From positions 18,113 to 82,112 of the forward strand of contig CAIQVJ010000041.1 of assembly GCA_903875225.1 (NCBI GenBank): a DNA stretch of 64,000 bases. Reading direction: 5' to 3'. Below the pieces are notes generated by a model that did not search any database, had not been told where the DNA came from, and saw only the letters and a program-made list of their open reading frames with translations. The position numbers and the translations under genes were made by a program. The stretch comes from an uncultured Pseudomonadota bacterium (lineage in GTDB: Bacteria; Myxococcota_A; UBA796; SXON01). Below, piece by piece: positions 12,177 through 53,418 of the stretch (its first letter is position 1; each line of letters begins with the position of its first letter).

Positions 12177-13898
12177 CTACCGCCCGAACGGGATGGTGAT
12201 GCTCAGCATCACGCCCTTCGTGCGCGTGTCGTACTCGGCCACGACGGGGATCCCCTTGTATTGAACCCCAAGCTGCGGATTCAGGGTGTTCTGTCCTGTC
12301 CCGAAGTCCTTCTTGTAGTGCGCGCCGGCGATCCAGGAGGTGTTCTCGTCGATCGGGCGAGCGGCCTGGACCGAGGTGTCGAGTTGGCTGGTGTTCTGTC
12401 CACCCCACGTGACCGCAGACTGCCACCGCACGTAGGTGCCGCGTAGCTCCTGCTCCACGAGGAGGCCGAACTTGCTCTGGTCGATGTCGGACTTGTAGCG
12501 GTAGTCCAGAAGATAGCTACGGAATTCACTCTTGCTCTTGAACCCGTAGAAGGCGCCCACCTCCCACAGCTTGGCATCTCCGGACTTGAACAGGAGATCG
12601 CCCCCGTATTGGGTCTCGCCGTCGGTCTTCTTGACCGAGCCGGAGAGCTGGTTGTTGCCGTTGCTCGCAAAGGTGGCATCGAGCTTCGCGGTGAGATCCG
12701 CCCGTGTGTAGCTCATCCCGACCTTGAGCTTGTCGGTCTCGGACATCCCGAAGGGCGTCTTGGTCGATTCGTGGGAGACGCCGACGTACCCGGACTTCGT
12801 GGCGCCGCCCGACGTCTCCTCGTGGGAGACGGTCTCGGAGAGGCTTCCGCTTCCATCGCTGTTCGTCTTCGAGGTCTTGTCGATCGTCAGCCCGCTGTCG
12901 GAGTACACGCTGCCCAGTCCGACGGAGAACACGCCGGTCCCGGCGTTGTACTCGAAGTCCCTGGTGTCGGTGATGTTGCCCTTCCTGCTCACGAGCTTCA
13001 CGCCGCCGATCGTGCCTTCGCCGCGCTTCTCGTTCACGCCCGCCGAGAGCTTGCCCGCGCCGGTGTCCATCACGCCGTTGAGCCCTGCGAAGGTCAAGCC
13101 CTTGCCGTCGAAGGTCGCATCGGCCTTCAAGGACCTGCCCTCACCGTTCATGGTGAGGTTGGCGTTCGCCGTGGTGCCCTTCTCGTCATGGCCCGCGCTC
13201 ACCGCGGCCAGCAGCGGCCCGCTCTCGTACGACAGCTTCGCCCGCACGCTCTGCAGCGACATCGCACGGATCTTGCCGAGCTTTGCCTCCACTTCGGCCG
13301 AGAGGCCCTTCCCCAGCGAGAACTTCTGCTTGAGCGTGGGGATGGCGACGTTCGCGAGGACGGCGCCGGCAGCAGCCAGCAGGGCGGTGAGCACGATGGT
13401 GCGCGGGTGCGCCCCCACCCACTGCGTGAGCGAGGCCGAGAGCCCCGCCCCGTTCTTCGCCATCCACTCGTCCACCAGGGGGTCGAGCTTGTCCTTGAGC
13501 AGCGTGCCCAGCGTCGTGAGCGCCTTGGGATCCGCAGTGACTCCGTCGAGGCTGCCAAGCTGCCCCACGATGCCTTCCAGCGCGCCGTCCACCGCCTTCC
13601 GGGCCGTCGCCGACAACTTGTCGTACGCGAGTTGCGGCGCCACCGCCTTGTACAATTCGCTGCCGAGGAACTCTCCGAGCGCTGCTTCGTAGTTCGACAG
13701 CCCGGCGTCTCCGGCATCCGCGCCCGGTCCGGCTTTCTCGTCTGCCTGCCCCGGCGCGGCTGTCGTGAGCGGGTCGAGGGCCCCCTGGGCGGCGTCGTTG
13801 CCGCGCACCTGGGCCACGGCGGGCGTGGCGACATCGGGCGCGGGCGCTGCAACGGTTGGCGCGGCGGAATTCGCAGACTGACGCTGAAGTCCGGCCAT
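12177..13898 (-). CDS. Hypothetical protein: helical N-terminal region, one hydrophobic helix, then a Gly/Ser/Thr/Lys-rich beta-type C-terminal half
   Basis: 573-aa ORF with good GC3. It has no N-terminal signal peptide. An internal hydrophobic helix is IVLTALLAAAGAVLANVAI. The C-terminus has alternating beta-like strands and ends ...SITIPFGR. Confidence 0.7.
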   Translation of the reverse strand: MAGLQRQSANSAAPTVAAPAPDVATPAVAQVRGNDAAQGALDPLTTAAPGQADEKAGPGADAGDAGLSNYEAALGEFLGSELYKAVAPQLAYDKLSATARKAVDGALEGIVGQLGSLDGVTADPKALTTLGTLLKDKLDPLVDEWMAKNGAGLSASLTQWVGAHPRTIVLTALLAAAGAVLANVAIPTLKQKFSLGKGLSAEVEAKLGKIRAMSLQSVRAKLSYESGPLLAAVSAGHDEKGTTANANLTMNGEGRSLKADATFDGKGLTFAGLNGVMDTGAGKLSAGVNEKRGEGTIGGVKLVSRKGNITDTRDFEYNAGTGVFSVGLGSVYSDSGLTIDKTSKTNSDGSGSLSETVSHEETSGGATKSGYVGVSHESTKTPFGMSETDKLKVGMSYTRADLTAKLDATFASNGNNQLSGSVKKTDGETQYGGDLLFKSGDAKLWEVGAFYGFKSKSEFRSYLLDYRYKSDIDQSKFGLLVEQELRGTYVRWQSAVTWGGQNTSQLDTSVQAARPIDENTSWIAGAHYKKDFGTGQNTLNPQLGVQYKGIPVVAEYDTRTKGVMLSITIPFGR

Positions 13899-13948: not shown

Positions 13949-13992
13949 GTTTGCGGCGAGACGGGGCCGGTCACCACCATCCGTCTTTCTGT

Positions 13993-14009
13993 ACTGAACA
14001 TCTGTGCAA
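13993..14009 (-). promoter_or_regulatory. LexA (SOS) box-like motif upstream of the tandem uvrA-like gene
   Basis: The minus strand reads TTGCACAGATGTTCAGT, which matches 13 of 17 positions of the Myxococcus xanthus LexA consensus CTRHAMRYBYGTTCAGS. It lies 30 nt upstream of the ATG at 14039. Confidence 0.4.
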
Positions 14010-14038
14010 AACGCCAGGGGTCGCGTTACCGGCGCCCG

Positions 14039-17000
14039 ATGGCTGACCGTCTCACCGTCCGCAACGCCCGCGAGCACAATCTGCGGGGGATTTCCCTCGA
14101 CCTTCCTCGCGACTCCCTCGTCGTGATCACCGGTGTCTCCGGCTCCGGCAAGTCCTCGCTCGCGTTCGACACCATCTACCAGGAGGGTCAGCGCCGGTTC
14201 ATGGAATCGCTCTCCCCCTATGCGCGGCAGTTCCTCGGCCAGATGGAGCGCCCGAAGGTGGATCGCGTGGAGGGGCTCTCCCCCACGCTCTCGATCGACC
14301 AGAAGACGGTGAACCGCAACCCCCGATCGACGGTGGGGACGGTCACCGAGGTGTACGACCACCTGCGGCTCCTGTTCGCGCGTCTGGGCACGCCGCACTG
14401 CCCGAAGTGCGACCGCACGATCTCCCGCCAGAGCCCGGGCGAGCTTGCGGACCGCTGGCTCCGGGACCATGCTGGGGAGCGCATCCTGGTGCTCGCGCCG
14501 ATGGTGCGCGACCGCAAGGGCGAGTACCGCGAGGAGTGGGACCACTGGCGCAAGGAGGGCTGGCTCCGGGCCCGGGTGGACGGCGAGGTGCGCCTGATCG
14601 AGGAGCCGCTCGAGATCGCGCGGTACGAGAAGCACACGCTCGAACTGGTGGTGGACCGCCTCGTGTGCCTCACCCAGGATCGAGCCCGGCTGGTGGAGTC
14701 GATCGAGCGCGCATTGCGGCTCGCGGAGGGCGTCGTCTGCCTGCTCGTCCCCGCGCACGGGGACAAGCCCGAGCAGCACTCCGTGCACGCGGTCGACCGG
14801 GCCTGCCCCGAGCATGGGATCTCGGTCTCCGAGCTCGAGCCCCGGCTGTTTTCGTTCAATGCGCCGCAGGGGGCCTGCCCCACGTGCACCGGGATCGGCG
14901 AGGTGGTCACGGTTCGCGGGCTGACGATGCCTGCTCCGTCGGACAGTGACCCTGCAGCGCGACGAACATGCCCGGACTGCAGTGGGCGGCGGTTGAACCC
15001 GGTCGCGCTGGCCGTGGAGTTTCGTGGCCAGCACATCGACGAGGCCGCACGCATGAGCGTGAGGGACGCCAACGTGTTCTTCTCGTCCGTGGTGCTGGAG
15101 GGCTCGGAGATCCTGCTCGGGGAGGGGATCGTCAAGGAGATCCGCGACCGGATGCGGTTCCTCGATCAGGTGGGCCTGGGCTACCTGACGTTGGACCGCC
15201 GGGCCAACACGCTCTCCGGCGGTGAGGCACAGCGCATCCGGCTCGCCGCGTGTGTCGGCAGCGGACTGCAGGGGGTGACCTACGTACTGGACGAGCCCAG
15301 CATCGGGCTGCACCCGCGGGACAATCGTCGTCTGTTGGGCGCGTTGGGCGTGTTGAGGGACCAGGGGAACACGCTGCTCATCGTGGAGCACGACCGCGAG
15401 ACGATGGAGATGGCCGATCACCTCGTCGACATCGGGCCCGGAGCGGGGATCCTCGGCGGCTGGCTGATGGGCTCCGGCCCACCTGGCAGCTTTCTCACGG
15501 TCGACTCGCCTACGGCCCGGTACCTGCGGGGCGAGGAGGTGATCCCCATGCCTCTACGCCTGCGCACCGCCACGACCGTCGGTCGGGGGGAGCTGCAGAT
15601 CAAGGGCGCGCGGATGCACAACCTGCGCGGCCAGGCGGTGAAGATCCCCCTCGGGTGCCTCACCGTGCTCACCGGGGTCTCGGGCTCCGGCAAGTCGACC
15701 CTGATGTTCGACGTGCTGCAGGCCCACCTCGAAGGCAGGGCCACGGAGGCCTGCGGCGTGCTGACGACGACGGGGCTGATGCCGGACAAGGTCATCGAGA
15801 TCGCGCAGACGCCGATCGGGCGCACGCCGCGCTCCAACCCGGGTACCTACTCGGGGACGTGGGACCTGATCCGGGACCTCTACGCCGAGCTCCCCGAGTC
15901 ACGCGCTCGCGGCTACAAGAAGGGCCAGTTCAGCTTCAACGTCGCGGGCGGGCGCTGCGACACGTGTGAGGGTGCCGGAGTTCGCACCATCGCCATGCAT
16001 TTTCTCGCAGACGTCGAGATCCCGTGCGAGACCTGCAACTCCCGGCGGTTCAACGCCCAGACGCTCGAGATCCTCTACCGCGGGAAGTCCATCGCGGACG
16101 TGCTGGAGATGCAGATCGCCGAGGCCGTCGAGTTCTGGTCCAACAACCCGAAGATCCACCGGATCCTCTCGACGCTCCACCAGGTCGGCCTCGGGTACAT
16201 CACCCTCGGGCAGCGCGCGACCACGCTCTCGGGCGGGGAGGCCCAGCGCCTCAAGCTGGCGACGGAGCTCCAGCGCCCGGCCACGGGGAACACGGTGTAC
16301 CTGCTCGACGAGCCGACCACCGGGCTGCACTTCTCCGACGTGCGCGTGCTGATCGGCGCGCTCCAGTTGCTCGTCGACGCCGGCAACACGATGGTGGTGA
16401 TCGAGCACAACACCGACGTGGTCAAGGTGGCCGACCACCTGATCGAAGTAGGTCCGGAGGGCGGGGTGGCGGGGGGCCACATCCTCGCGATGGGTCCGCC
16501 CGCGAAGGTGGCCAGGACCGATACGCCGACGGGCATCGTGCTGCGCGCCCTGCCGGAGTTCGGCGGCCAGCCCGTGGGGTTCGCGGCCGAGCGGCCCGGT
16601 CCGGCCCGCCTCGCACCCAGCCACGACCTGGTGATCCGCGGGGCTCGCTGCCACAACCTGCGTGGCGTGAACGTCACCATCCCGCGCGGCAGGATGACGG
16701 TGATCACCGGACCCTCCGGTTCGGGAAAGACGTCGCTCGCCTTCGACACGATCTTCGCCGAGGGCCAGCGGCGCTACGTCGAGAGCCTGTCGACCTACGC
16801 GCGCCGGTTCCTCGGCAGGCTCGAGCGGGCGCCCATCGACAGCATCTCCGGGCTTGCCCCCGCCATCGCGATCGACCAGCGCACGTCTGGCGGCAGCGGG
16901 CGCAGCACCGTCGCCACGGTCACCGAGCTTCAGGACCATTTCCGGTTGCTCTGGGCAAACCTCGGGGTCCCGCATTGCCCCACCTGCGACCGCGTGATCC

Positions 17001-19069
17001 ACGCGCGCCCGCCGGTGCAGGCCGCCGAGTACATCGCTTCGGCGACGCCCGGCCCCGGCTGGCTCCTGTGTGCGCTGTCCGAGCCCCAGCCCGCGGCCGA
17101 CCTCCGAAAGGCCGGCTTCGCGCGAGGATACGACGGTCGAAAGGGAGACTACGAGCTCACGGATCAGCCGAAGGTGACCACCCTGGTGCTGGATCGGCTG
17201 GACCCTGCGACGGTCGAGCGCAGCCGCCTCGTCGAAGCCATCACCACCGCCTACCGCTACGGCGCGAATCGCGCGTGGTTCCAGCCGCGCGGGGCCGGCA
17301 GGGGGGCTCACCCCGACCCCCTGCCCGTCAGCGCGCTTGCCCGTTGCCCCGAGCACGGCCTCGTCCACAAGTCGCTGCTCACGCCGCGGCACTTCAGCTT
17401 CAACCACTACCTCGGCGCCTGCACGACGTGCGACGGCATGGGCCGCATCGAGATCAAGGGGCAGATCTGGCTCTGCAAGAAGTGCTCAGGATCGAGGCTG
17501 AAGCCGGAGATCATGGCGGTCCGCTTCGGGGGCGGGAGGTCGGCCCCTGCGGGCCTCCACACGGTCTCGGCGTGCACGGTCTCCGAGGCCCGGGGCTGGT
17601 TCGACGGCCTGGAGCTTGCGCCCAACGATGCGCTGGTCGCCGCGCAGCCGTTGCGGGAGATCCGGGCTCGACTGCGGTTCCTGGAGGATGTGGGCGTCGG
17701 GTACCTGAACCTGGATCGAGGCGGAAACACGGTCTCCGGCGGTGAGGCCCAGCGGATCCGTCTGGCCACCCAGCTTGGGGGTGGGCTCACCGGCGTGATC
17801 TACGTGCTGGACGAGCCCACCGTGGGGCTGCACCCGCGGGACACGGCGCGCCTGCTCGGCACGCTCGAAGGGCTCCGCGCGCTCGACAACACGCTGGTGA
17901 TCGTCGAGCACGACCCGGAGACCATCCGCCGGGCGGACCACGTGATCGATCTCGGACCGGAGGCCGGCGAGCGCGGCGGCCAGGTGCTCGCAGAAGGCCC
18001 CCCCATGTCCCTGCCCTCGTCGAGCGCTACCGGCCCCTGGCTGCGCGGCGAGCGCACGATCCCGTTGCCAGCCTTCCGACGGCCGGGCGGGCCCCCGATC
18101 CAGATCCGGAAGGCGAATCGACACAGCCTCGTGAACGTGGATGTGGACATTCCGACAGGCGCTTTCACCGTGGTGACAGGCGTGAGCGGATCCGGGAAGA
18201 GCACCCTGATCCTCGACCTGATGGTGGGGAAGCTGACCGGGGACGTCCGCCCGGTCGAGGTGACGATTCCCCAGCCCGACCCGCGGACCGTGCTGCAGCT
18301 CCAGGTGATCGACCAGACGCCGATCGGCCGGAGTCCGCGCTCCTCGGCCGCCACCTATGTGGGCGTGATGGACCCGCTGCGAAAGTTGTTCGCCCAGACG
18401 CCCGTGGCGCGGGAGCGGGGTTGGAGCCACAGCTACTTCACGGCGAACGGAGGCGAGGGTGCCTGTTCCGTCTGCAAGGGGTACGGCTCCGAGCAGGTGG
18501 AGATGCACTTCCTCTCCAACGTGTGGGTGAAGTGCGAGACCTGTCACGGGCGACGCTTCGCGCCCGAGACGTTGGATGCCCGCTGGAAGGGCCTGTCGAT
18601 CGCCGACGTGCTGGACCTTCGGGTGGACGACGCGATCGAGATCTTTGCGCAGCACAGGGCGATCCGGAGGGCGCTGGAGGGTTTGAACGCCGTTGGTCTT
18701 GGCTACGTGCGGTTGGGTCAGCCCGCGACGGACCTCTCGGGCGGAGAGGCGCAGCGGGTGAAGCTGGCGCTTGGTCTCGCGGATCGGTCCAACCCGACGA
18801 TCTACGTGCTCGACGAGCCCACCACCGGACGGCACTTGAGCGACATCGCGCGCCTCGTCACGGTGCTCGATCGCCTGGTGGATCACGGCCACACCGTCAT
18901 CGTCGTCGAGCACCACGTGGACATCATGCGGCACGCCGACCTGCTGATCGACATGGGCCCCGAGGCCGGACCGGGCGGGGGCCGGATCGTGGTCACGGGG
19001 ACGCCGGAGGAGGTCGCCCGGCACCCCACGAGCCATACGGCGGCGGCGCTGCGCGCGAGCGGGCTCTGA
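14039..19069 (+). CDS. Tandem-duplicated UvrA-like ABC ATPase (two UvrA units, four nucleotide-binding modules, in one polypeptide)
   Basis: ATG at 14039 gives MADRLTVRNAREHNLRGISL. There are four Walker A loops (GVSGSGKSS, GVSGSGKST, GPSGSGKTS, GVSGSGKST) and four (L/V)SGGEAQR signatures. The second unit starts near nt 16619 (SHDLVIRGARCHNLRG). Confidence 0.9.
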   Translation: MADRLTVRNAREHNLRGISLDLPRDSLVVITGVSGSGKSSLAFDTIYQEGQRRFMESLSPYARQFLGQMERPKVDRVEGLSPTLSIDQKTVNRNPRSTVGTVTEVYDHLRLLFARLGTPHCPKCDRTISRQSPGELADRWLRDHAGERILVLAPMVRDRKGEYREEWDHWRKEGWLRARVDGEVRLIEEPLEIARYEKHTLELVVDRLVCLTQDRARLVESIERALRLAEGVVCLLVPAHGDKPEQHSVHAVDRACPEHGISVSELEPRLFSFNAPQGACPTCTGIGEVVTVRGLTMPAPSDSDPAARRTCPDCSGRRLNPVALAVEFRGQHIDEAARMSVRDANVFFSSVVLEGSEILLGEGIVKEIRDRMRFLDQVGLGYLTLDRRANTLSGGEAQRIRLAACVGSGLQGVTYVLDEPSIGLHPRDNRRLLGALGVLRDQGNTLLIVEHDRETMEMADHLVDIGPGAGILGGWLMGSGPPGSFLTVDSPTARYLRGEEVIPMPLRLRTATTVGRGELQIKGARMHNLRGQAVKIPLGCLTVLTGVSGSGKSTLMFDVLQAHLEGRATEACGVLTTTGLMPDKVIEIAQTPIGRTPRSNPGTYSGTWDLIRDLYAELPESRARGYKKGQFSFNVAGGRCDTCEGAGVRTIAMHFLADVEIPCETCNSRRFNAQTLEILYRGKSIADVLEMQIAEAVEFWSNNPKIHRILSTLHQVGLGYITLGQRATTLSGGEAQRLKLATELQRPATGNTVYLLDEPTTGLHFSDVRVLIGALQLLVDAGNTMVVIEHNTDVVKVADHLIEVGPEGGVAGGHILAMGPPAKVARTDTPTGIVLRALPEFGGQPVGFAAERPGPARLAPSHDLVIRGARCHNLRGVNVTIPRGRMTVITGPSGSGKTSLAFDTIFAEGQRRYVESLSTYARRFLGRLERAPIDSISGLAPAIAIDQRTSGGSGRSTVATVTELQDHFRLLWANLGVPHCPTCDRVIHARPPVQAAEYIASATPGPGWLLCALSEPQPAADLRKAGFARGYDGRKGDYELTDQPKVTTLVLDRLDPATVERSRLVEAITTAYRYGANRAWFQPRGAGRGAHPDPLPVSALARCPEHGLVHKSLLTPRHFSFNHYLGACTTCDGMGRIEIKGQIWLCKKCSGSRLKPEIMAVRFGGGRSAPAGLHTVSACTVSEARGWFDGLELAPNDALVAAQPLREIRARLRFLEDVGVGYLNLDRGGNTVSGGEAQRIRLATQLGGGLTGVIYVLDEPTVGLHPRDTARLLGTLEGLRALDNTLVIVEHDPETIRRADHVIDLGPEAGERGGQVLAEGPPMSLPSSSATGPWLRGERTIPLPAFRRPGGPPIQIRKANRHSLVNVDVDIPTGAFTVVTGVSGSGKSTLILDLMVGKLTGDVRPVEVTIPQPDPRTVLQLQVIDQTPIGRSPRSSAATYVGVMDPLRKLFAQTPVARERGWSHSYFTANGGEGACSVCKGYGSEQVEMHFLSNVWVKCETCHGRRFAPETLDARWKGLSIADVLDLRVDDAIEIFAQHRAIRRALEGLNAVGLGYVRLGQPATDLSGGEAQRVKLALGLADRSNPTIYVLDEPTTGRHLSDIARLVTVLDRLVDHGHTVIVVEHHVDIMRHADLLIDMGPEAGPGGGRIVVTGTPEEVARHPTSHTAAALRASGL

Positions 19070-30169: not shown

Positions 30170-31804
30170 ATGCGCGTCGTTTGCGACAATTGTGGTGCAT
30201 CTTACAAGATTCCTGACAGCAAGCTCACCCGTGAGGTGAACAAGGCGACCTGTCGGAAGTGTGGTCATGCCATCTACATCCGCCGATCCGGGGCGGATGG
30301 GTTGAACGAGGCGCCACTTTCACCAGCCGACGAGCGCACGGCGATCAAGTCCGTCGCGGATCTCGATCGGCCGACAGCGGTCCAGCATGACGCCTCGGGC
30401 GGGGACTCGACGATCCCCCGGGACGAGCCGATGATGGCCGAGCCGGCGCCGATGCTGCGCGGCTCGGGCGTGACGATCCTGCCGGTCGACGCCCGGGGCT
30501 CCAACGGCGCTTCGAACGGTCATGTGCCGTTCGGGCAGGCGGATCGTGATCGGCCCACGATCGCATCCCAGCCGGAGCGGGCGCCTTCTCGCCCCCCGGG
30601 CCGGTCGATGCCGCCCCCCATGTCCGTCCCCGAGGCGCAGCCCGCGCCCCAGCCTGCACCTGCGCTGGCGCCGGCGCCGATCTCTCCGCAACAGGCGCGC
30701 AATTCCCTGCCGCCGCTCGCGTCGCCCTCGCGGCCCGCGGCGCTCTCGACCCCGAGCGCGTTCGACCCCTCCTCGGACCTGAGTGTCGCGCTGCTGAGCA
30801 GCATGGTGGCGATCCTCGGTGTGGCGGTGCTCGTGGCGTCCAACCTCGTGGTGAGCACGTGGGCCGGCGCGGTGGGCGCCTTCCTGGCGCTGTTCGGCAT
30901 CCTCGTCGTCGTCCTGGTGTTGCTCACCGGCGGGCGGGGCGCGCGCAAGGCGAGCCTGTTCATGGCGGCCATCGGCGCTTTCGTGATCGCGCTGTTCGGC
31001 GCGGCGGCCACGGCCGCCGGCGGTTGGGCCCTGAACGGGTCCATCCCGGCTCCCCCGGCTCCTCCCATCGCCGCCGCTGCGCCCGAGGCCCCGCCCAAGC
31101 CCGACGCCGCCGCCGCCACCATGGCCGACGTCGCGCCGGCGCCACCGGCGGCTGACCCGACCACGCCTCCCGTAGCTGACGCCGCCGCTCCCGCGCCGGC
31201 TGTCGCCGACGCTGTCGCCCCGACCCCGCCCGCTCCGCCCGCCCCGGCCCCCGTCGTGGCGCCTGCGCCGGCTCCCGCGCCTACGCCCGTCTCCCGCACG
31301 AACGCGAGCCCGGAGCGCATCCCCGCGTCGTCGTCGTCCTCCTCCTCCAGCAGCTCGGACGCCGCGCGCGCCGCGGCCGCGGCCAAGGCCGCCGCGGATG
31401 CCCGCGCTGCTGCAGACGCGAAGGCGGCCGCGGATGCCCGCGCCAAGGCCAAGGCCGATGCCGCGGCCAGGGCCGCTGCGTCGACGGCTTCGAGCTCATC
31501 CGCCCCGACGGCGTCATCCTCCGCCTCGGCGATCAGCCTGCAGGTGGTCGACGTGATGCTGCGCTCCAACAAGGGTGTCAAGACCTGCTTCATCAACGAG
31601 ATGCACGACAACGGCGGCAGCGTGCCGAAGGGCGTGAAGGTCAAGCTCACCATCGACCCTTCCGGCAAGGTCTCCAAGGCCTCCACACAGGGCGACTACA
31701 ACGGGACCCCCTTCGACTCCTGCCTCGGCAGCGCGATCAAGGCGATCACGTTCCCGCCCTACGAGGGCGACCCCGTCTCGCTCACGTACCCCTTCCAGAC
31801 GTGA
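30170..31804 (+). CDS. MJ0042-type zinc-ribbon protein with TM segments, Ala/Pro-rich spacer and AgmX/PglI-type C-terminal domain
   Basis: [16 protein letters not shown]...ATCRKCGH zinc ribbon. Hydrophobic segments around aa 210-300. The C-terminus (VKTCFINE...[18 protein letters not shown]) is typical of the myxobacterial AgmX/PglI domain. Confidence 0.8.
31326..31476 (+). repeat. Low-complexity coding repeat (Ser10 run followed by AAADA[RK] repeats)
   Basis: A (TCG/TCC/AGC)10 run is followed by two near-identical copies of GC(C/G)GCCGCGGATGCCCGCGC, encoding [10 protein letters not shown]...[30 protein letters not shown]. Confidence 0.6.
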
Positions 31805-32004
31805 GCCTCATGGGGAGGGCCGCCTGGCGGCGCTCCCCGTCCCGCCGCACGATCGGCCCCAGAGTGGATCGACCGCGGCGAGTTGGCGTGTCCCCTGGGG
31901 AGTTCGCCCCGGGCCACACCTCCGCTGTCCCGCCCCGGTTGGGGCACCCTGTCGACACCTCGCCACTCGCGGCATACCCGCCGCCGCTCACTCCCGGAAC
32001 CGCT

Positions 32005-33822
32005 TTGTCTGCAATCATCCCGATCCGAAATATCGCCATCATCGCCCACGTCGACCATGGCAAGACCACGCTCGTAGACGGGCTGCTCAAGCAGGCCGGC
32101 ACCTGGCGCAGCAACGAACACGTCATCGACCGCGTCATGGACTCGATGGATCTGGAGCGTGAGCGCGGCATCACCATCATGGCGAAGGTCGCCTCCGTCC
32201 ACTACAAGGGCGTCAAGATCAACATCGTCGACACACCAGGGCACGCGGACTTCGGCGGCGAGGTCGAGCGCACCCTGAAGATGGTCGACGGCGCGATGCT
32301 GCTCGTGGACGCCTCCGAAGGTCCGCTCCCCCAGACGCGTTTCGTGCTCCGTAAGGCGCTCGAGGCCGGCCTCTCGATCATGGTGTGCATCAACAAGATC
32401 GACCGGCCCGACGCCCGCATCCCCGAGGTGATGAACGAGGTGTACGACCTGTTCATCGATCTCGGCGCGACCGAGGAGCAGATCGACTTCCCGGTCATCT
32501 ACGCCTGCGCGCGCGATGGCTGGTGTACCCGGGATCCCGAGGTCAAGGGCCCCGACTTCCAGCCGCTGTTCGACACGATCGTCGACCGCATCCGCCCTCC
32601 CAAGGCCGATCCCGATCACTCGCTCCAGCTCCTGATCACCCAGCTCGACTACGACAACTTCCTCGGCCGCATCGCGATCGGGCGGCTGTTCAACGGCGTG
32701 TTGCGCGAGAAGACCGACCTCCTGCTCTACGGCGAGAACGGCCCGCGCAAGGTCCGGGTCAACCAGCTCTTCACCTTCGAAGGCATGAAGCGCATCCCGG
32801 CCTCGATGGTCGAGTCGGGCGACTCCTGCGCCATCGCGGGCATCCCCGAGATCAACATCGGGGACACCATCACCCTGGTCGACAATCCGAGCCCCCTGCC
32901 GCGGCTCACGGTCGACGAGCCCACGATCGGCATGACGTTCTCGTCGAACAACTCGCCGTTCTCGGGCCGCGAGGGGAAATACGTCACGGCCCGCCAGATC
33001 CGCGAGCGCCTCGAGAAGGAGATGCTCACCAACGTGGCCCTCCGGCTCGAAGACACGGGCAGCTCCGAGACGATGCGCGTGTTCGGCCGCGGCGAGCTGT
33101 AGCTCGCGATCCTCATCGAACAGATGAGGCGTGAAGGCTACGAGATGAGCGTCTCGAAGCCCGAGGTCAAGATCCGCGAGGAAGGCGGCCGCAAGCTGGA
33201 GCCCTACGAGGACGCCCAGCTCGACTTCCCCGAGTCCTTCATGGGTGTCGTCACCCAGAAGATGGCGCTGCGAAAGGGCCGGATGACCGAGATGAAGTCC
33301 GACGGCTCCGGGCGCGTTCGGCTCAACTTCCGCGTTCCTGCTCGGGGCCTCATCGGGTTCCGTGGCGAGTACCTGAACGACACCCGGGGAATGGGACTGC
33401 TCAACACGATCTTCGACGGCTGGGACGACTGGGCCGGGTTCATCCAGGCGCGGATCCAGGGCTCGCTCATCAGCGACCGCACGGGCAAGGCCACGACCTA
33501 CGCGATCTGGCACCTCCAGCCGCGTGGTCGGCTGTTCATCAGCCCCGGCTGCGAGGTCTACGAAGGCATGATCGTCGGTGAAAATGCTCGTGAGAACGAC
33601 ATGATCATCAACGTCGTCCGTGAGAAGCACCTCACCAACGTGCGCGCGTCCGGCGCCGACGAGAAGCAGATCCTCGTCCCGCCGATCCAGGTCACGCTGG
33701 AGAAGGCCCTGGAGTACCTCTCCGAGGATGAGCTGGTCGAGGTCACGCCGGGCAGCATCCGCATGCGCAAGAAGCAGTTGCAGGGCAACCTGCGGTCGCT
33801 GGTTCGGACCGAGCGGGACTGA
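32005..33822 (+). pseudogene. typA: Translational GTPase TypA/BipA interrupted by one in-frame TAG
   Basis: G1 [10 protein letters not shown]3 DTPGH and G4 NKID motifs. Both ORFs (31801-33102 and 33124-33822) are in the same frame. The sequence reads ...[20 protein letters not shown] where homologues have GRGEL(H/Q)L. The proposed start is TTG at 32005 ([16 protein letters not shown]) and is uncertain. Confidence 0.85.
33100..33102 (+). other. In-frame amber stop codon inside typA
   Basis: The codon series is GGC GAG CTG TAG CTC GCG ATC. A single C-to-T change of CAG (Gln) would produce it. Confidence 0.9.
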
Positions 33823-47030: not shown

Positions 47031-48668
47031 ATGGCCTCCATTGCAGTTCCCGATCCCTCGTCCACCCGTGAAGCCTTCGCCGACTGGCGCGCCCGCGTCG
47101 CACGCGACTGGCTCGCCGACGACCCGCATTTCGTTTCGCTCGTCCCGGATTTTCCGGAGCTTCGGCCCTTCGCCGCCCGCTGTGCGACCGAGGTCAACGC
47201 CTGGACGAAGAACACCAATCGCGACGAGCACCTGCCTCGGCTCGAGCGGTTCGACCCGGACGGCCACCGCACCGAGGCCATCGTGCATCACCCCGACCAC
47301 ATGCGCATCGGGGAGGCGATCTGGGGCGCCGACCTGCTCGGACGCTACCGGCAACCCGGCCATGAGCGGGAGACGTTCGGGCTGCTTTACCTGCTCTCGC
47401 AGAACGGAGAGGGGGGGTGGTGCTGCCCGATGGCGTGCACCGCCGGGATGATCAAGGTCTGCCAGCAGGCGTCGGACCTGCCGGCGGGCTGGCTGGACCG
47501 CCTGCTCGACGCGGACTTTGGCAAGATGCTCTTTGCGAGCCAGTTCCTGACCGAGATCCAGGGGGGATCCGACGTGGGCGCGAACGCCGTCGTGGCGCGA
47601 CCTGCGGAGGGCGAAGCCGGCGCTGCGGGCTGGTGGGCGCTCACGGGGGAGAAGTGGTTCTGCTCCGTGATCGACGCGAACCTGTTCCTGGTCACGGCGC
47701 GCCCGTCCGGGGCGACCGGTGGGACCGCCGGACTCCAGGCGTTCGTCGTGCCACGGGCCCTGCCGGGCCTCGATCCGCGCGACCCGTCGAGTGAACCGAA
47801 CCGGTACGCTGTGAGACGGCTCAAGTGGAAGTTGGGCACGCGGTCGATGGCGTCGGCCGAGATCGACCTGGAGGGGGCGCTGGGTTGGCCGGTGGCGGAC
47901 TTCGCACGCACGGTCGAGATCGTGCTGAACACGTCCCGGCACTACAACGCCGTCTGCGCTGCGGGGATCCTGCAGCGGGCGTGGCGCGAGGCGGACGGCT
48001 GGGCCCGGACGCGGGTGGCGTTCGGTCGTCCGATCGTGGAGTTCCCGGGGGTCGCACGCTCGTTGGCGAAGCTTCGCTGCGAGGCCCACGCCGCGCGATC
48101 ACTCACCTTCGACCTGGCGAAGATCGGAGACGAGCTGGCGGTGGGCCCGGACGTGGCGCTCGCGACCGCATGGCGCATGCTCGTGAACCTGAACAAGATC
48201 TGGACTGCGCTCACCTGTCCGGCGGGCGTGCGCGACGCGATGGAGGTGGTCGGGGGAAACGCCACGATCGAGGAGTTCACCATCCTGCCGAGGCTGTTGC
48301 GTGACAGCCTGGTCCTGGAGGCGTGGGAGGGCGCGCACGGGGTGTTGTGCGCCCAGCTTTTGAAGGACGCTAAGAAGGGCATGCACCTGCCGATGTTCGC
48401 GTACCTCCGCAGCGTCGCCCCGGCAGGCTCGGTCGCCTCGATCGACGCTTTGGCCGCGTTGTGGGACAGCACGCTCGCGCGGCCGGACCGGGAGGTTGTC
48501 TGGCGTGATCTGGTGGAGCAGAGCCGGGCTCCGGTGCAGGCGATGCTGATGCGCGCGCAGGGGGTCGAGAGCGCCGTGGTGGAGCATTTCGTGAACCTCC
48601 ACGACCGCGCCTGGGACCCGTTGCAGGATCCGCGGCTCGACGCCCGCCTGCGGGCGGTCATTCGTTGA
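47031..48668 (+). CDS. AidB-like acyl-CoA dehydrogenase family protein
   Basis: FLTEIQGGSDVGAN and LTGEKWFCSVIDANLFLVTAR motifs. The 545-aa length is typical of the AidB subgroup. Confidence 0.8.
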   Translation: MASIAVPDPSSTREAFADWRARVARDWLADDPHFVSLVPDFPELRPFAARCATEVNAWTKNTNRDEHLPRLERFDPDGHRTEAIVHHPDHMRIGEAIWGADLLGRYRQPGHERETFGLLYLLSQNGEGGWCCPMACTAGMIKVCQQASDLPAGWLDRLLDADFGKMLFASQFLTEIQGGSDVGANAVVARPAEGEAGAAGWWALTGEKWFCSVIDANLFLVTARPSGATGGTAGLQAFVVPRALPGLDPRDPSSEPNRYAVRRLKWKLGTRSMASAEIDLEGALGWPVADFARTVEIVLNTSRHYNAVCAAGILQRAWREADGWARTRVAFGRPIVEFPGVARSLAKLRCEAHAARSLTFDLAKIGDELAVGPDVALATAWRMLVNLNKIWTALTCPAGVRDAMEVVGGNATIEEFTILPRLLRDSLVLEAWEGAHGVLCAQLLKDAKKGMHLPMFAYLRSVAPAGSVASIDALAALWDSTLARPDREVVWRDLVEQSRAPVQAMLMRAQGVESAVVEHFVNLHDRAWDPLQDPRLDARLRAVIR

Positions 48669-52096: not shown

Positions 52097-52179
52097 CGGC
52101 GGAATCTATTCACTCCCGGGGGGGCGACAGGGGTTGATTGAAATCCCGGGTGCGCGGTCCTTGCCGCTCGGCGAAATTA

Positions 52180-52196
52180 CTATACACTTGTTCAAT
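52180..52196 (+). promoter_or_regulatory. LexA (SOS) box-like motif abutting the dinB start codon
   Basis: CTATACACTTGTTCAAT matches 15 of 17 positions of the M. xanthus LexA consensus CTRHAMRYBYGTTCAGS. Its last two bases are the AT of the dinB ATG. Confidence 0.55.
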
Positions 52197-53418
52197 GCCC
52201 CTTGCGCCGCGACTCGGCTGCCTGGACCTCGACACGTTCTTCGTGTCGGTGGAGCGGCTGCTCGATCCGTCGCTCGTGGGACGCCCGGTGATCGTGGGTG
52301 GCCGCAAGGGGGATCGCGGCGTGGTCACGTCGTGCAGCTACGAGGTGCGCCCGCTGGGCGTCCACTCGGGAATGAGCCTCGTCGACGCTGTGCGGCTCGC
52401 TCCCGACGCGATCTTCGTGCCCACCCGCCGCGACACCTACGGGGGGCATGCGGCCCGCGTGAAGGCCATCGTCGAGCGCTGGTGCCCGGTGGTGCGGACC
52501 GCGAGCATCGACGAATTCTACCTGGACTTCCACGGCTGCGACGGTCTGTACGCCACGGCCGGGGACGTGGACGGAGACGCCACGATCGAGCGGACCGTGC
52601 GCGAGATGCGCGACGCCATCCAGGTGGAGACCGGTCTGCCGTCGAGCGTCGGGCTGGGGATCTCCCGCGCCATCGCCAAGATGGCGAGCGGGCGGGCCAA
52701 GCCCGCAGGGGTGTTGATGGTCCGCGCGGGGGAGGAGTGGCGCTTCGTCGAGGGCCTGCCGGTTCGCAAGCTCCCCGGCATCGGACCGGTCGCGGAGGCC
52801 GAGCTGCAACGCGCGGGAATAGCGACGCTGGGCCAACTCTCGGCGGTCCCCGATGGCCCGAGCCGCGTCGCGGGCATGGCCTCCCGCCTGCGCGAGGCGC
52901 TCCGTCCGTCCGGCCCGCTTCCCGAGCACGACCGGCCGGCTTTTCAAGAGCACGACGAGACCACCGACGGCAGCCTCTCCAACGAGCGTACTTTTTTTGC
53001 CGCGCTGGGGGACGAGACGACCGTGCTCGACGCCTTGAGGTCGCTCGTGGAGCGGGTGACCTGGCGCCTGCGCCGCCGCAGCGGCGAGGCGAGAACCATC
53101 ACCTTGAAGCTTCGCTACTCCGATTTCAGCACGATCACGCGGGGACGGACCGGCCCGCCGACCAACGGGGAGGACGAGGTCTGGAGGGTGGCGAGGCAGC
53201 TCCTGCTGGGCAGTTGGTCGAGGCGGCGTCGGGTGCGACTGCTTGGAGTCCAGCTCTCCAACCTCGTGCCTGCGGGCACGCAGCTTGCCCTGTTTCCTCC
53301 GGCTCGTCCGCGCGCTGGCAGCGCGATCGACGCGGTGCGCGCGCGCTTTGGCTACGACGCGATCCGCATGGGGGCGGTCGTCGCGCCGCGCGAGGAGCCG
53401 GAGGCGGGGCCGCGCTGA
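52195..53418 (+). CDS. dinB: DNA polymerase IV (Y-family)
   Basis: LDLDTFFVSVE, SIDEFYLDF and LPVRKLPGIG motifs. The product is 407 aa. Confidence 0.92.
   Translation: MPLAPRLGCLDLDTFFVSVERLLDPSLVGRPVIVGGRKGDRGVVTSCSYEVRPLGVHSGMSLVDAVRLAPDAIFVPTRRDTYGGHAARVKAIVERWCPVVRTASIDEFYLDFHGCDGLYATAGDVDGDATIERTVREMRDAIQVETGLPSSVGLGISRAIAKMASGRAKPAGVLMVRAGEEWRFVEGLPVRKLPGIGPVAEAELQRAGIATLGQLSAVPDGPSRVAGMASRLREALRPSGPLPEHDRPAFQEHDETTDGSLSNERTFFAALGDETTVLDALRSLVERVTWRLRRRSGEARTITLKLRYSDFSTITRGRTGPPTNGEDEVWRVARQLLLGSWSRRRRVRLLGVQLSNLVPAGTQLALFPPARPRAGSAIDAVRARFGYDAIRMGAVVAPREEPEAGPR

What the first reader, a model, noticed from the sequence alone, without database searches (positions are those of the whole stretch)
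14039..19069. Covalent tandem of two UvrA-like units (four ABC modules), both lacking the insertion domain
One uninterrupted 1676-codon ORF holds two complete UvrA-like units (aa 1-860 and 861-1676). It has four Walker A loops and four (L/V)SGGEAQR signatures. In each unit, the zinc-module pair that normally brackets the ~110-aa insertion (DNA-binding) domain encloses only 27 aa (CPTC...CPDC) or 14 aa (CTTC...CKKC). The segment at the position of the UvrB-binding domain is retained (~120-135 aa). Canonical UvrA is about 940 aa and works as a dimer, so this would be a pre-formed pseudo-dimer. It differs from the class II paralogues (DrrC/UvrA2 type), which lack the UvrB-binding domain. It may act in damage or drug-adduct recognition rather than classical NER.
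Basis: partly seen in the sequence, partly recalled or inferred. Interest (0 to 1): 0.7.

Follow-up and report, generated by a model that had tools for sequence, protein, structure and literature searches.

The report
Double UvrA lacking both insertion domains
This is a real 1676-residue gene that fuses two UvrA DNA-damage-sensor units, from an old and widespread family of double UvrAs; its branch has lost the DNA-clamping insertion domain from both halves and keeps a recognisable UvrB-docking domain only in the first half.

Summary
Window 14039-19069 (+) is one uninterrupted 1676-codon ORF with two UvrA units, four Walker A loops, four (L/V)SGGEAQR signatures and no insertion domain (ID) in either unit. 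Independent assemblies cover the junction without indels.

It is not a one-off. About 31 database clusters share this ID-/ID- layout. They sit inside a much larger family of double UvrAs that also has ID+/ID+ forms (about 1900 aa) and ID+/ID- forms (about 1780 aa). In a tree of the separated halves, all N-units form one clade (99%) and all C-units another (96%). So there was one old fusion, followed by ID losses.

The C-unit keeps the fold there but has lost the conserved motif.

Both halves are under purifying selection (dN/dS 0.13). The neighbourhood is housekeeping, with no biosynthetic cluster. An 18-nt element upstream recurs only in front of a dinB-like polymerase gene and resembles the Myxococcus LexA box.

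Best reading: a damage-inducible, asymmetric intramolecular "UvrA dimer" that recruits one UvrB. I could not test whether a canonical uvrA coexists in the same genome. Verdict: a new variant of a known kind, of moderate interest.

The parts
14039..19069 (+). Tandem uvrA ORF: 1676 codons plus stop
   Evidence: Uninterrupted translation. NCBIfam UvrA equivalog NF001503 scores 2010.7 bits over 4 stretches. An identical protein, P0001, lies on an ENA lake-metagenome scaffold.
14039..16543 (+). N-unit (aa 1-835): class-I-like UvrA without the insertion domain
   Evidence: NF001503 1129.9 bits and TIGR00630 1109.5 bits. Aligns to solved UvrAs with a 118-aa gap at the ID. AF2 model pLDDT 88.9, best fold match 3uwx_A/2r6f_A with TMq 0.85-0.87.
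14429..14743 (+). N-unit UvrB-binding domain (aa 131-235)
   Evidence: PF17760 UvrA_inter E 1.2e-29 to 9.5e-33. Also hits the isolated UvrA interaction-domain structures 4dfc_B and 3fpn_A. Retains 0.82 of the positions conserved in single UvrAs, including APxVRDRKGEY. dN/dS 0.107.
14876..14980 (+). N-unit zinc module 2 (CPTC 280 ... CPDC 311) with a 27-aa loop where the ~120-aa insertion domain normally sits
   Evidence: No PF17755 hit. The model shows a beta-hairpin, E288-292 and E295-298.
16544..16627 (+). Inter-unit linker (aa 836-863)
   Evidence: The stretch from the TxTG motif to the first C-unit strand, which contains this linker, is 33-37 aa in all 29 ID-/ID- relatives measured, with a conserved LPEFGG. 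It is the least constrained part of the protein (dN/dS 0.43) and has low pLDDT. Gap-free in independent contigs.
16628..19066 (+). C-unit (aa 864-1676): diverged UvrA unit without the insertion domain
   Evidence: NF001503 887.5 bits and TIGR00630 859.3 bits. Alignment to 2r6f has a 118-aa gap at the ID. AF2 pLDDT 89.4, pTM 0.83. 45% identical to the N-unit.
16988..17344 (+). C-unit domain at the UvrB-binding-domain position (aa 984-1102): fold kept, signature lost
   Evidence: PF17760 is only sub-threshold (E 0.023, 15 bits, last third of the model). The PxVRGRKG loop is deleted and only 0.48 of canonical conserved positions are kept. The fold is confidently predicted (pLDDT 92-97) and superposes on full-length UvrA. 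dN/dS 0.20.
17420..17485 (+). C-unit zinc module 2 (CTTC 1128 ... CKKC 1146) with a 14-aa loop in place of the insertion domain
   Evidence: No PF17755 hit.
13992..14009 (+). Candidate SOS (LexA) box TACTGAACATCTGTGCAA, 30 nt upstream of the ATG
   Evidence: Conserved in the otherwise diverged upstream region of the 83%-identical relative. There is only one other copy in 64 kb at up to 3 mismatches, with 0.05 matches expected by chance. A window offset by 5 nt (13997-14013) matches the published M. xanthus SOS box 14/17 on the forward pattern, and the relative's site matches 15/17 (motif quoted in PMC9705874).
52178..52195 (+). Second copy of the element (TACTATACACTTGTTCAA), abutting the start of a Y-family polymerase gene
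   Evidence: Positions 52180-52196 match the M. xanthus SOS box 15/17.
52195..53418 (+). dinB-like Y-family DNA polymerase (407 aa), probably co-regulated
   Evidence: PF00817 IMS 3.2e-36, PF11799 4.9e-25, PF11798 2.5e-5.

Best explanation
The gene encodes a member of an old, widespread family of covalently duplicated class-I-type UvrA proteins ("double UvrAs"). It belongs to a sub-lineage, seen so far only in metagenome-derived sequences, some labelled Myxococcota or Deltaproteobacteria, that has lost the insertion (DNA-clamping) domain from both units.

Shown:
- One ancient fusion underlies all the double UvrAs sampled. ID loss came later: the C-unit ID was lost at least twice independently, and in this lineage the N-unit ID as well.
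- All four ATPase sites and all zinc modules are invariant across the family.
- Both halves are under purifying selection.
- The two halves have specialised. The N-unit keeps a canonical UvrB-binding domain. The C-unit keeps only the fold of that domain.

Inferred:
- The two units fold back on each other to form the equivalent of the UvrA2 dimer within one chain.
- This pseudo-dimer binds DNA through the signature-II / Zn3-hairpin surfaces, without ID clamps.
- It recruits a single UvrB through the N-unit, giving a built-in UvrA2B1-like asymmetric sensor that hands damage to UvrB/UvrC.
- The gene is induced by DNA damage through a LexA-type box that it shares with a dinB-like polymerase gene.
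For: - Identity and architecture.
- Real fusion: independent contigs cover the junction, and over 100 full-length clusters exist.
- Three architectures among the top 120 homologues: ID+/ID+ at least 67, ID+/ID- 10, ID-/ID- about 31, and none ID-/ID+.
- Neighbour-joining tree of 118 units on 757 core columns: N-units 99% bootstrap, C-units 96%, the ID-/ID- N-unit and C-unit clades 100% each, and the ID-less C-units not monophyletic.
- Catalytic residues are invariant in 40 aligned tandems.
- UvrB-binding domain asymmetry holds in all three architectures.
- Both unit models are confident and are closest to class I UvrA from the UvrA-UvrB complex, 3uwx_A.
- dN/dS against the 83% relative: 0.13 overall, 0.11 for the N-unit UvrB-binding domain, 0.20 for the C-unit domain at that position, 0.43 for the linker. 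Three of the four SNPs in run X3 are synonymous, and the fourth lies in the linker.
- The context is housekeeping and syntenic, with no biosynthetic cluster.
- SOS-like box shared with dinB. uvrA is damage-induced and LexA-repressed in M. xanthus.
- A UvrA2UvrB1-DNA complex has been seen by cryo-EM (PMC11985968).
- Single-unit ID-less UvrAs with strong UvrB-binding domains are common in CPR bacteria, so an ID-less UvrA is a recurrent and viable design.
Against: - The intramolecular dimer was not modelled, because the protein is too long for the structure tool.
- No uvrB or uvrC lies nearby, and UvrB binding is untested.
- Recent structures give the IDs an essential role in clamping and melting DNA, so an ID-less sensor may discriminate damage poorly or work differently.
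- Tandem N-units are further from single UvrAs (Kimura distance 0.72-0.74) than single UvrAs of different phyla are from each other (0.61). An ID+/ID+ relative in a 9.4-Mb genome sits among accessory-looking genes such as LysR and AbiEii. Both facts fit an accessory paralogue whose job may not be bulk NER.
- The SOS-box match is partial (14-15 of 17). It was not found upstream of two more distant ID-/ID- relatives or of two ID+/ID+ relatives.
- No RNA data were available.
Confidence: 0.55

Rival explanations
1. It is an accessory, UvrB-independent DNA-binding ATPase, functionally like the class IIa proteins DrrC and Ecm16. It would recognise or displace particular adducts or intercalators, or protect DNA. 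A separate canonical uvrA elsewhere in the genome would carry out NER.
For: - The loss of both IDs and the degeneration of one UvrB-binding domain show relaxed canonical constraints.
- The tandem clade is divergent from single UvrAs.
- Some relatives lie in accessory-looking neighbourhoods.
- One ID+/ID+ relative is labelled Cognaticolwellia. To my knowledge, not tested here, members of that group carry a canonical uvrA.
- Class IIa proteins act without the NER machinery (PMC9328131).
Against: - The N-unit UvrB-binding domain is strongly conserved and under purifying selection (PF17760 1e-30, dN/dS 0.107). That is hard to explain if UvrB is never bound.
- There is no biosynthetic or efflux cluster nearby.
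- Class II proteins have the opposite domain content: ID kept, UvrB-binding domain lost.
- The candidate SOS box is shared with dinB.
Confidence: 0.25
2. It is the organism's only UvrA. This would mean that neither the insertion domains nor two UvrB-binding domains are needed for nucleotide excision repair in this lineage.
For: - It sits in a housekeeping, syntenic position.
- The N-unit scores almost at the equivalog cutoff despite lacking 118 aa (1129.9 against 1147).
- It carries an SOS-like box, as expected for the uvrA of a LexA regulon.
- CPR bacteria with very small genomes carry only-ID-less-looking single UvrAs.
Against: - This could not be tested. The source is a metagenome scaffold, and no tool allowed a scan of the rest of the genome or of the relatives' MAGs.
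- The tandem clade is divergent and phyletically patchy: Myxococcota, Planctomycetota, and Alpha- and Gammaproteobacteria labels. That pattern is more typical of a paralogue.
Confidence: 0.3
3. It is an artefact: two adjacent uvrA-like genes joined by an assembly or base-calling error at the junction.
For: The window does contain at least one base-level error or rare allele: an in-frame TAG in typA/bipA at 33100 that four independent runs read as CAG.
Against: - Gap-free, stop-free independent contigs cover the junction in three runs.
- The same fusion is found at full length in more than 100 clusters from many assemblies and sources.
- The linker length is conserved at 33-37 aa.
Confidence: 0.01

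Closest known systems
Class I UvrA (canonical excinuclease ABC subunit A; NCBIfam NF001503 / TIGR00630; structures 2R6F, 3UWX, 3PIH, 3ZQJ, 9GXK)
   Same: Each unit has the full UvrA core: two ABC modules with intact Walker A/B, signature and H-loop, three zinc modules and the Zn3 hairpin. The N-unit also has a canonical UvrB-binding domain. The best sequence and fold matches of both units are class I UvrAs.
   Different: Two units sit in one chain instead of forming a homodimer. There is no insertion domain in either unit. The C-unit UvrB-binding domain is degenerate. The fourth ligand of Zn1 is His (CPEH) in both units.
ID+/ID+ and ID+/ID- double UvrAs (about 1860-1990 aa and about 1780 aa) in Myxococcota, Planctomycetota and Proteobacteria MAGs and genomes. 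Pipelines annotate them as plain "excinuclease ABC subunit UvrA".
   Same: They share the same ancient fusion: N-units and C-units are each monophyletic. They share the same asymmetry, with a canonical UvrB-binding domain in the N-unit and a degenerate one in the C-unit, and the same linker motif.
   Different: They keep one or both insertion domains (PF17755; zinc module 2 loop 120-125 aa). The window's lineage has lost both.
Class II UvrA (D. radiodurans UvrA2, DrrC, Ecm16; 2VF7, 7SH1) and the ~1600-aa tandems built from class-II-like units seen. I recall, but could not verify in the held literature, that duplicated UvrAs were termed "class III" by Goosen and Moolenaar (2008).
   Same: They are UvrA-derived ABC ATPases with reduced domain content. 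The tandem class-II-like proteins have a similar total length.
   Different: Their domain content is the opposite. Class II lacks the UvrB-binding domain and Zn1 and keeps the ID (zinc module 2 loop about 134 aa). The fold matches of both units are weaker to 2vf7 and 7sh1 than to class I.
Chlamydia-type double-length UvrA (NCBIfam NF001885, PRK00635, 1809-position model)
   Same: It is a double-length UvrA that a curated model recognises as an "excinuclease ABC subunit A".
   Different: The window protein scores 1155.7 against a cutoff of 3054. Both of its units align best to the first half of that model. So it is not a member, and probably not the same fusion event.
Single-unit ID-less UvrAs of Patescibacteria (CPR) and some Bdellovibrionales and Planctomycetaceae MAGs (826-900 aa)
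   Same: They have the same deletion: a 13-aa loop between the CxxC pairs of zinc module 2. They also keep a strong UvrB-binding domain.
   Different: They are single units that presumably homodimerise. The loss is independent, because they do not group with the tandem clade.

Membership tests
UvrA class I (canonical) | Two ABC ATPase modules per unit, with Walker A, Walker B, signature and H-loop | tested here: met
   All four sites are present, and the catalytic residues are invariant across 40 tandem sequences.
UvrA class I (canonical) | UvrB-binding domain (Pfam PF17760) | tested here: inconclusive
   The N-unit meets it, with E 1e-30. The C-unit does not: E 0.023, 15 bits against a cutoff of 23.3, and the conserved PxVRGRKG loop is deleted, although the fold is kept.
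UvrA class I (canonical) | Insertion / DNA-binding domain (Pfam PF17755) between the CxxC pairs of zinc module 2 | tested here: not met
   There is no PF17755 hit. The loops are 27 and 14 aa. About 118 residues of 9gxk and 2r6f are unmatched.
UvrA class I (canonical) | A single unit of about 940 aa that acts as a homodimer | tested here: not met
   It is a 1676-aa chain with two units. The oligomeric state cannot be tested here.
UvrA class I (canonical) | Score above the curated NCBIfam equivalog cutoffs | tested here: inconclusive
   The whole protein passes NF001503 (2010.7 against 1147) only because it is double. The N-unit alone scores 1129.9 and the C-unit alone 887.5, both below the cutoff. 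Both units pass TIGR00630, with 1109.5 and 859.3 against 729.8.
UvrA class I (canonical) | Loads UvrB onto damaged DNA and supports UvrC incision | not testable with these tools
   This needs biochemistry or genetics.
Class II UvrA (UvrA2 / DrrC / Ecm16) | [quoted passage not shown] | tested here: not met
   Both units have Zn1 (CPKC...CPEH and CPTC...CPEH) and a 119-131-aa domain between the Zn1 ligands. The N-unit domain is a strong PF17760 match.
Class II UvrA (UvrA2 / DrrC / Ecm16) | Retains the insertion domain | tested here: not met
   No ID in either unit.
Double (tandem) class-I-type UvrA clade defined here | Two UvrA units in one ORF. The N-unit groups with other N-units and the C-unit with other C-units. 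| tested here: met
   Neighbour-joining bootstrap is 99% for all N-units and 96% for all C-units. The ID-/ID- subclades are at 100%.
Double (tandem) class-I-type UvrA clade defined here | Asymmetry: canonical UvrB-binding domain in the N-unit, degenerate one in the C-unit | tested here: met
   The same pattern is seen in ID+/ID+, ID+/ID- and ID-/ID- representatives.
Chlamydia-type double UvrA (NF001885) | Score above the curated cutoff of 3054 bits | tested here: not met
   1155.7 bits.
LexA (SOS) regulon | A LexA box in the promoter region that is bound by LexA | tested here: inconclusive
   The 18-nt element at 13992-14009 is conserved in a relative and is shared only with the dinB-like gene. 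It matches the M. xanthus box 14-15 of 17. Binding is not testable here.

The most novel reading that the evidence does not exclude
In this lineage the ID-less double UvrA is the only NER damage sensor. That would make it a natural, covalently asymmetric "UvrA2" with one UvrB-docking site and no DNA-clamping insertion domains. It would show that the IDs are dispensable for damage recognition in vivo and that a UvrA2B1 stoichiometry is sufficient for lesion hand-off. It would also provide a single-chain system in which the four ATPase sites and the two halves can be mutated independently.
Probability: 0.2. Interest if true: 0.7.

Novelty: new variant of a known kind. Interest (0 to 1): 0.45.

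Why it matters
UvrA normally works as a symmetric homodimer. That symmetry makes two questions hard to answer. Which protomer and which of the four ATP sites does what? And does the damage sensor carry one UvrB or two (UvrA2B1 against UvrA2B2), a point that reviews and 2025 cryo-EM papers still describe as open?

A natural single-chain UvrA breaks the symmetry genetically, because its halves have diverged and only one keeps the UvrB-binding signature. Each site can then be mutated separately.

The loss of both insertion domains is at odds with the view that the IDs are essential DNA clamps. This loss is seen here and, independently, in many CPR single UvrAs. It suggests that damage sensing can rest on the signature-II / Zn3 surface alone.

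If instead the protein turns out to be an accessory paralogue, it is still an uncharacterised, widespread and SOS-linked branch of the UvrA family.

Tried and rejected
1. Full-length AlphaFold model of the intramolecular dimer. This was impossible because 1676 aa exceeds the 1200-aa limit, so the two units were folded separately.

2. Search for a canonical uvrA in the same genome. The window holds no other UvrA-like ORF (tblastn). The source is a metagenome scaffold, and no tool can scan the relatives' MAGs as a whole.

3. The single genome-contig scan. No close ID-/ID- relative appeared, so co-occurrence could not be assessed.

4. Transcript evidence. No RNA run holds the gene.

5. Literature on duplicated or "class III" UvrA. 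Six full-text searches that bear on it and several papers found only class I, IIa and IIb descriptions. Timmins et al. 2009 is not held. The "class III" label therefore rests on my memory only.

6. A full match to the M. xanthus SOS box CTRHAMRYBYGTTCAGS. Only 14-15 of 17 positions match. Matches of 14/17 or better occur 17 times in the window and 15/17 three times, so the consensus match alone is weak. The argument rests on conservation and on the dinB co-occurrence.

7. Drug self-resistance context. No polyketide, NRPS or efflux genes flank the gene in the window or in relatives.

8. Names and organisms from cluster members. These were mostly absent.
Full report
**1. Observation**

Window 14039-19069 (+) is one open frame of 1676 codons plus a stop. 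A longer frame starts at a TTG at 13856, but the ATG at 14039 matches the N-termini of the relatives.

The frame holds:
- Four Walker A loops, at aa 32, 546, 891 and 1381.
- Four (L/V)SGGEAQR signatures, at 392, 730, 1232 and 1566.
- Four Walker B motifs and four H-loops.

Each half on its own is a strong UvrA match. The N-unit scores 1129.9 bits on NF001503 and 1109.5 on TIGR00630. The C-unit scores 887.5 and 859.3. The halves are 45% identical to each other.

The two CxxC pairs of zinc module 2 are 27 aa apart in the N-unit and 14 aa apart in the C-unit. Pfam finds no UvrA_DNA-bind (PF17755) domain in either unit. Alignments to solved UvrAs leave about 118 reference residues unmatched in each unit, exactly at the insertion domain.

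**2. The fusion is real**

The window matches an ENA lake-water metagenome scaffold. Logan contigs from three other runs cover 16300-16900 or 16300-16801 with no indel or stop. Run X3 differs at four bases. Three of these are synonymous, and the fourth (Q844E) lies in the linker.

This check was needed because the window is not error-free elsewhere. typA/bipA carries an in-frame TAG at 33100 that four independent runs read as CAG.

**3. It belongs to a large family**

The word-indexed search returned 120 full-length double UvrAs. I parsed the zinc module 2 loop in each half. Three architectures appear:

| Architecture | Clusters | Length |
|---|---|---|
| ID+/ID+ | at least 67 | 1860-1990 aa |
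| ID+/ID- | 10 | about 1780 aa |
| ID-/ID- | about 31 | 1630-1714 aa |

The ID-/ID- group is 60-100% identical to the window protein over its whole length. No ID-/ID+ form was seen in this set.

The exhaustive search of 50%-identity representatives lists about 120 clusters longer than 1500 aa among the top 150 hits. These include a different kind of tandem of about 1600 aa, built from class-II-like units that keep a 134-aa ID and have no UvrB-binding domain.

NCBIfam also holds a curated 1809-position double-UvrA model, NF001885. The window protein does not reach its cutoff (1155.7 against 3054), and both of its units align best to the first half of that model.

Source labels on relatives are Myxococcota, Deltaproteobacteria, Pseudomonadota, Alphaproteobacteria and Cognaticolwellia, plus Planctomycetota.

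**4. History of the family**

I split 46 tandems into halves, added 26 single UvrAs, and built a neighbour-joining tree on 757 well-occupied core columns with 100 bootstraps.
- All N-units form one clade (99%) and all C-units another (96%).
- The ID-/ID- N-units and C-units are each monophyletic (100%).
- The ID-less C-units of the ID+/ID- and ID-/ID- groups do not group together (0%).

So one old duplication-fusion gave rise to all of these proteins. The C-unit ID was then lost at least twice, and the N-unit ID was lost in the window's lineage.

C-units are further from single UvrAs (Kimura distance 0.83-0.87) than N-units are (0.72-0.74). Both are further from single UvrAs than single UvrAs of different phyla are from each other (0.61).

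**5. The two halves are not equivalent**

PF17760 (the UvrB interaction domain) hits the N-unit at about 1e-30. The corresponding C-unit segment reaches only E 0.023 (15 bits, last third of the model). The same holds for C-units of ID+/ID+ and ID+/ID- relatives.

I then looked at columns that are conserved in at least 85% of single UvrAs.
- N-units keep 0.82-0.89 of the UvrB-binding-domain residues.
- C-units keep only 0.39-0.48. They have deleted the P-x-V-R-G-R-K-G loop.
- In every other region, C-units keep 0.78-0.98.

AlphaFold2 models of both units are confident: N-unit pLDDT 88.9, C-unit 89.4. The C-unit segment is well ordered, with pLDDT 92-97. The whole C-unit superposes better on full-length Bst UvrA (TMq 0.88-0.89) than on UvrAs lacking that domain (about 0.70). 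So the fold survives but the UvrB-binding signature does not.

Several residues of the C-unit domain are invariant within the tandem family, and its dN/dS is 0.20. It is therefore still constrained, perhaps for a structural role or a new one.

**6. Constraint**

Against the 83%-identical relative (L084), dN/dS values are as follows:

| Region | dN/dS |
|---|---|
| Whole protein | 0.13 |
| N-terminal parts of the two cores (aa 1-120 and 864-980) | 0.05-0.06 |
| Remaining core segments (aa 260-835 and 1103-1670) | 0.14 |
| N-unit UvrB-binding domain | 0.107 |
| C-unit domain at that position | 0.20 |
| Linker | 0.43 |

The catalytic Lys, Asp-Glu and His residues, the signature residues of all four sites and the zinc ligands are invariant in 40 aligned tandems. 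The stretch from the TxTG motif to the first C-unit strand, which contains the linker, is held at 33-37 aa with a conserved LPEFGG motif.

**7. Context and regulation**

The neighbours are an SNF2 helicase, ClpB, a conserved unknown gene transcribed divergently, a histidine kinase with its response regulator, an amino-acid kinase, malate/lactate dehydrogenase and others. This order is largely kept in the 83% relative. More distant relatives sit in other but equally unremarkable contexts. There is no uvrB or uvrC, no biosynthetic cluster and no efflux pump.

Thirty nucleotides upstream of the ATG lies TACTGAACATCTGTGCAA (13992-14009). It is conserved in the relative's otherwise diverged upstream region. 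At up to 3 mismatches the window holds only one other copy, where 0.05 matches are expected by chance. That copy, at 52178-52195, abuts the start codon of a 407-aa Y-family polymerase (IMS, 3e-36).

The elements match the published M. xanthus SOS box CTRHAMRYBYGTTCAGS at 14-15 of 17 positions (motif quoted in PMC9705874). In M. xanthus, uvrA is damage-induced and LexA-repressed. This is suggestive of SOS control, but it is not proof.

**8. Mechanism**

What is shown is a double, asymmetric, fully ATPase-competent UvrA without IDs, under purifying selection.

What is inferred is this. The two units pair within one chain as the two protomers of UvrA2 do. DNA is held by the signature-II and Zn3-hairpin surfaces. 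One UvrB is recruited through the N-unit, and the lesion is handed over as in NER.

A UvrA2UvrB1-DNA complex has been observed for M. tuberculosis. The A2B1 against A2B2 question is still described as open.

One point argues against efficient classical NER. The same recent structures assign the IDs an essential DNA-clamping and DNA-melting role.

Against that point, many Patescibacteria (CPR) MAGs encode single-unit UvrAs with a 13-aa loop instead of the ID and a strong UvrB-binding domain. So do some Bdellovibrionales, Planctomycetaceae and "Gammaproteobacteria"-labelled MAGs. ID-less UvrAs are therefore a recurrent natural design.

**9. What remains open**

I could not determine whether this organism also has a canonical uvrA. 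My estimate is about 0.3 that this is the sole UvrA and about 0.7 that it is a paralogue beside a canonical one. In the paralogue case it could still be UvrB-dependent.

The intramolecular dimer, UvrB binding and LexA binding are all untested.

**10. Comparison and novelty**

The protein works most like class I UvrA. It is not a member in the strict sense, because it has no ID, it is a tandem, and one UvrB-binding domain is degenerate. It is not class II, which has the opposite domain content. It is not the Chlamydia-type double UvrA either.

Double UvrAs are present by the hundreds of clusters in databases under the plain name "excinuclease ABC subunit UvrA". From memory only, they were noted as a separate class in a 2008 review. 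The held literature contains no description of them or of ID-less forms.

The ID-/ID- sub-lineage and the family-wide asymmetry in the UvrB-binding domain appear to be undescribed. I rate this as a new variant of a known kind, of moderate interest.

Noticed in passing
window 33100-33102 (typA/bipA, 31801-33822 +): An in-frame TAG splits the typA/bipA gene into two ORFs ([17 protein letters not shown]). Logan contigs of four independent lake-water runs all read C at 33100, giving CAG (Gln). The stop is therefore a consensus error or a rare allele in this assembly, not a population feature.
   Followed up: yes
window 13992-14009 and 52178-52195; L084 about -49; L085 about -31: An 18-nt element, TACTGAACATCTGTGCAA / TACTATACACTTGTTCAA, occurs only upstream of the tandem uvrA and directly in front of a dinB-like Y-family polymerase gene (52195-53418). 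It resembles the M. xanthus LexA box at 14-15 of 17 positions. It is a candidate SOS box for this uncultured lineage.
   Followed up: partly
loci L002, L005-L008, L010, L012, L013, L017, L023, L028, L035, L044, L052, L056 and others (genome-contig scan): Single-unit UvrAs of 826-900 aa have only a 13-aa loop in place of the insertion domain and keep a strong UvrB-binding domain (PF17760 1.8e-28 in L002). They are common in Patescibacteria/CPR MAGs. They also occur in Bdellovibrionales, Planctomycetaceae and "uncultured Gammaproteobacteria" MAGs. In small-genome CPR bacteria they are probably the only UvrA.
   Followed up: partly
loci L022, L026, L042 (loops of 54-72 aa) and L058, L059 (about 106 aa): Some Bacteroidales UvrAs have intermediate-length inserts between the zinc module 2 cysteine pairs. 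This suggests partial truncations of the insertion domain.
   Followed up: no
proteins P0187, P0195, P0198, P0201, P0215, P0236-P0264: A separate group of ~1600-aa double UvrAs is built from class-II-like units, with a 134-aa ID and no UvrB-binding domain in either unit. This is a second, different kind of tandem UvrA. Other mixed layouts also exist, for example P0147, which looks ID-/ID+.
   Followed up: partly
window 47031-48668 (+): An AidB-like acyl-CoA dehydrogenase (PF18158 AidB_N plus Acyl-CoA_dh domains) lies 3.5 kb upstream of the dinB-like gene. It is another protein family linked to the DNA-damage/alkylation response in the same stretch.
   Followed up: no
window aa 256-259 and 1103-1106 of the ORF (nt 14804-14815 and 17345-17356): In both units, and in all 40 aligned tandems, the fourth ligand of zinc module 1 is His (CPEH), where Bst and C. 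thermocellum UvrA have Cys (CPYC / CTEC).
   Followed up: no
window 12177-13898 (-): A 573-aa protein with no Pfam match is transcribed divergently from the tandem uvrA. The pairing is conserved in the 83% relative (569 aa in L084). It shares the 140-bp intergenic region that holds the candidate SOS box.
   Followed up: no
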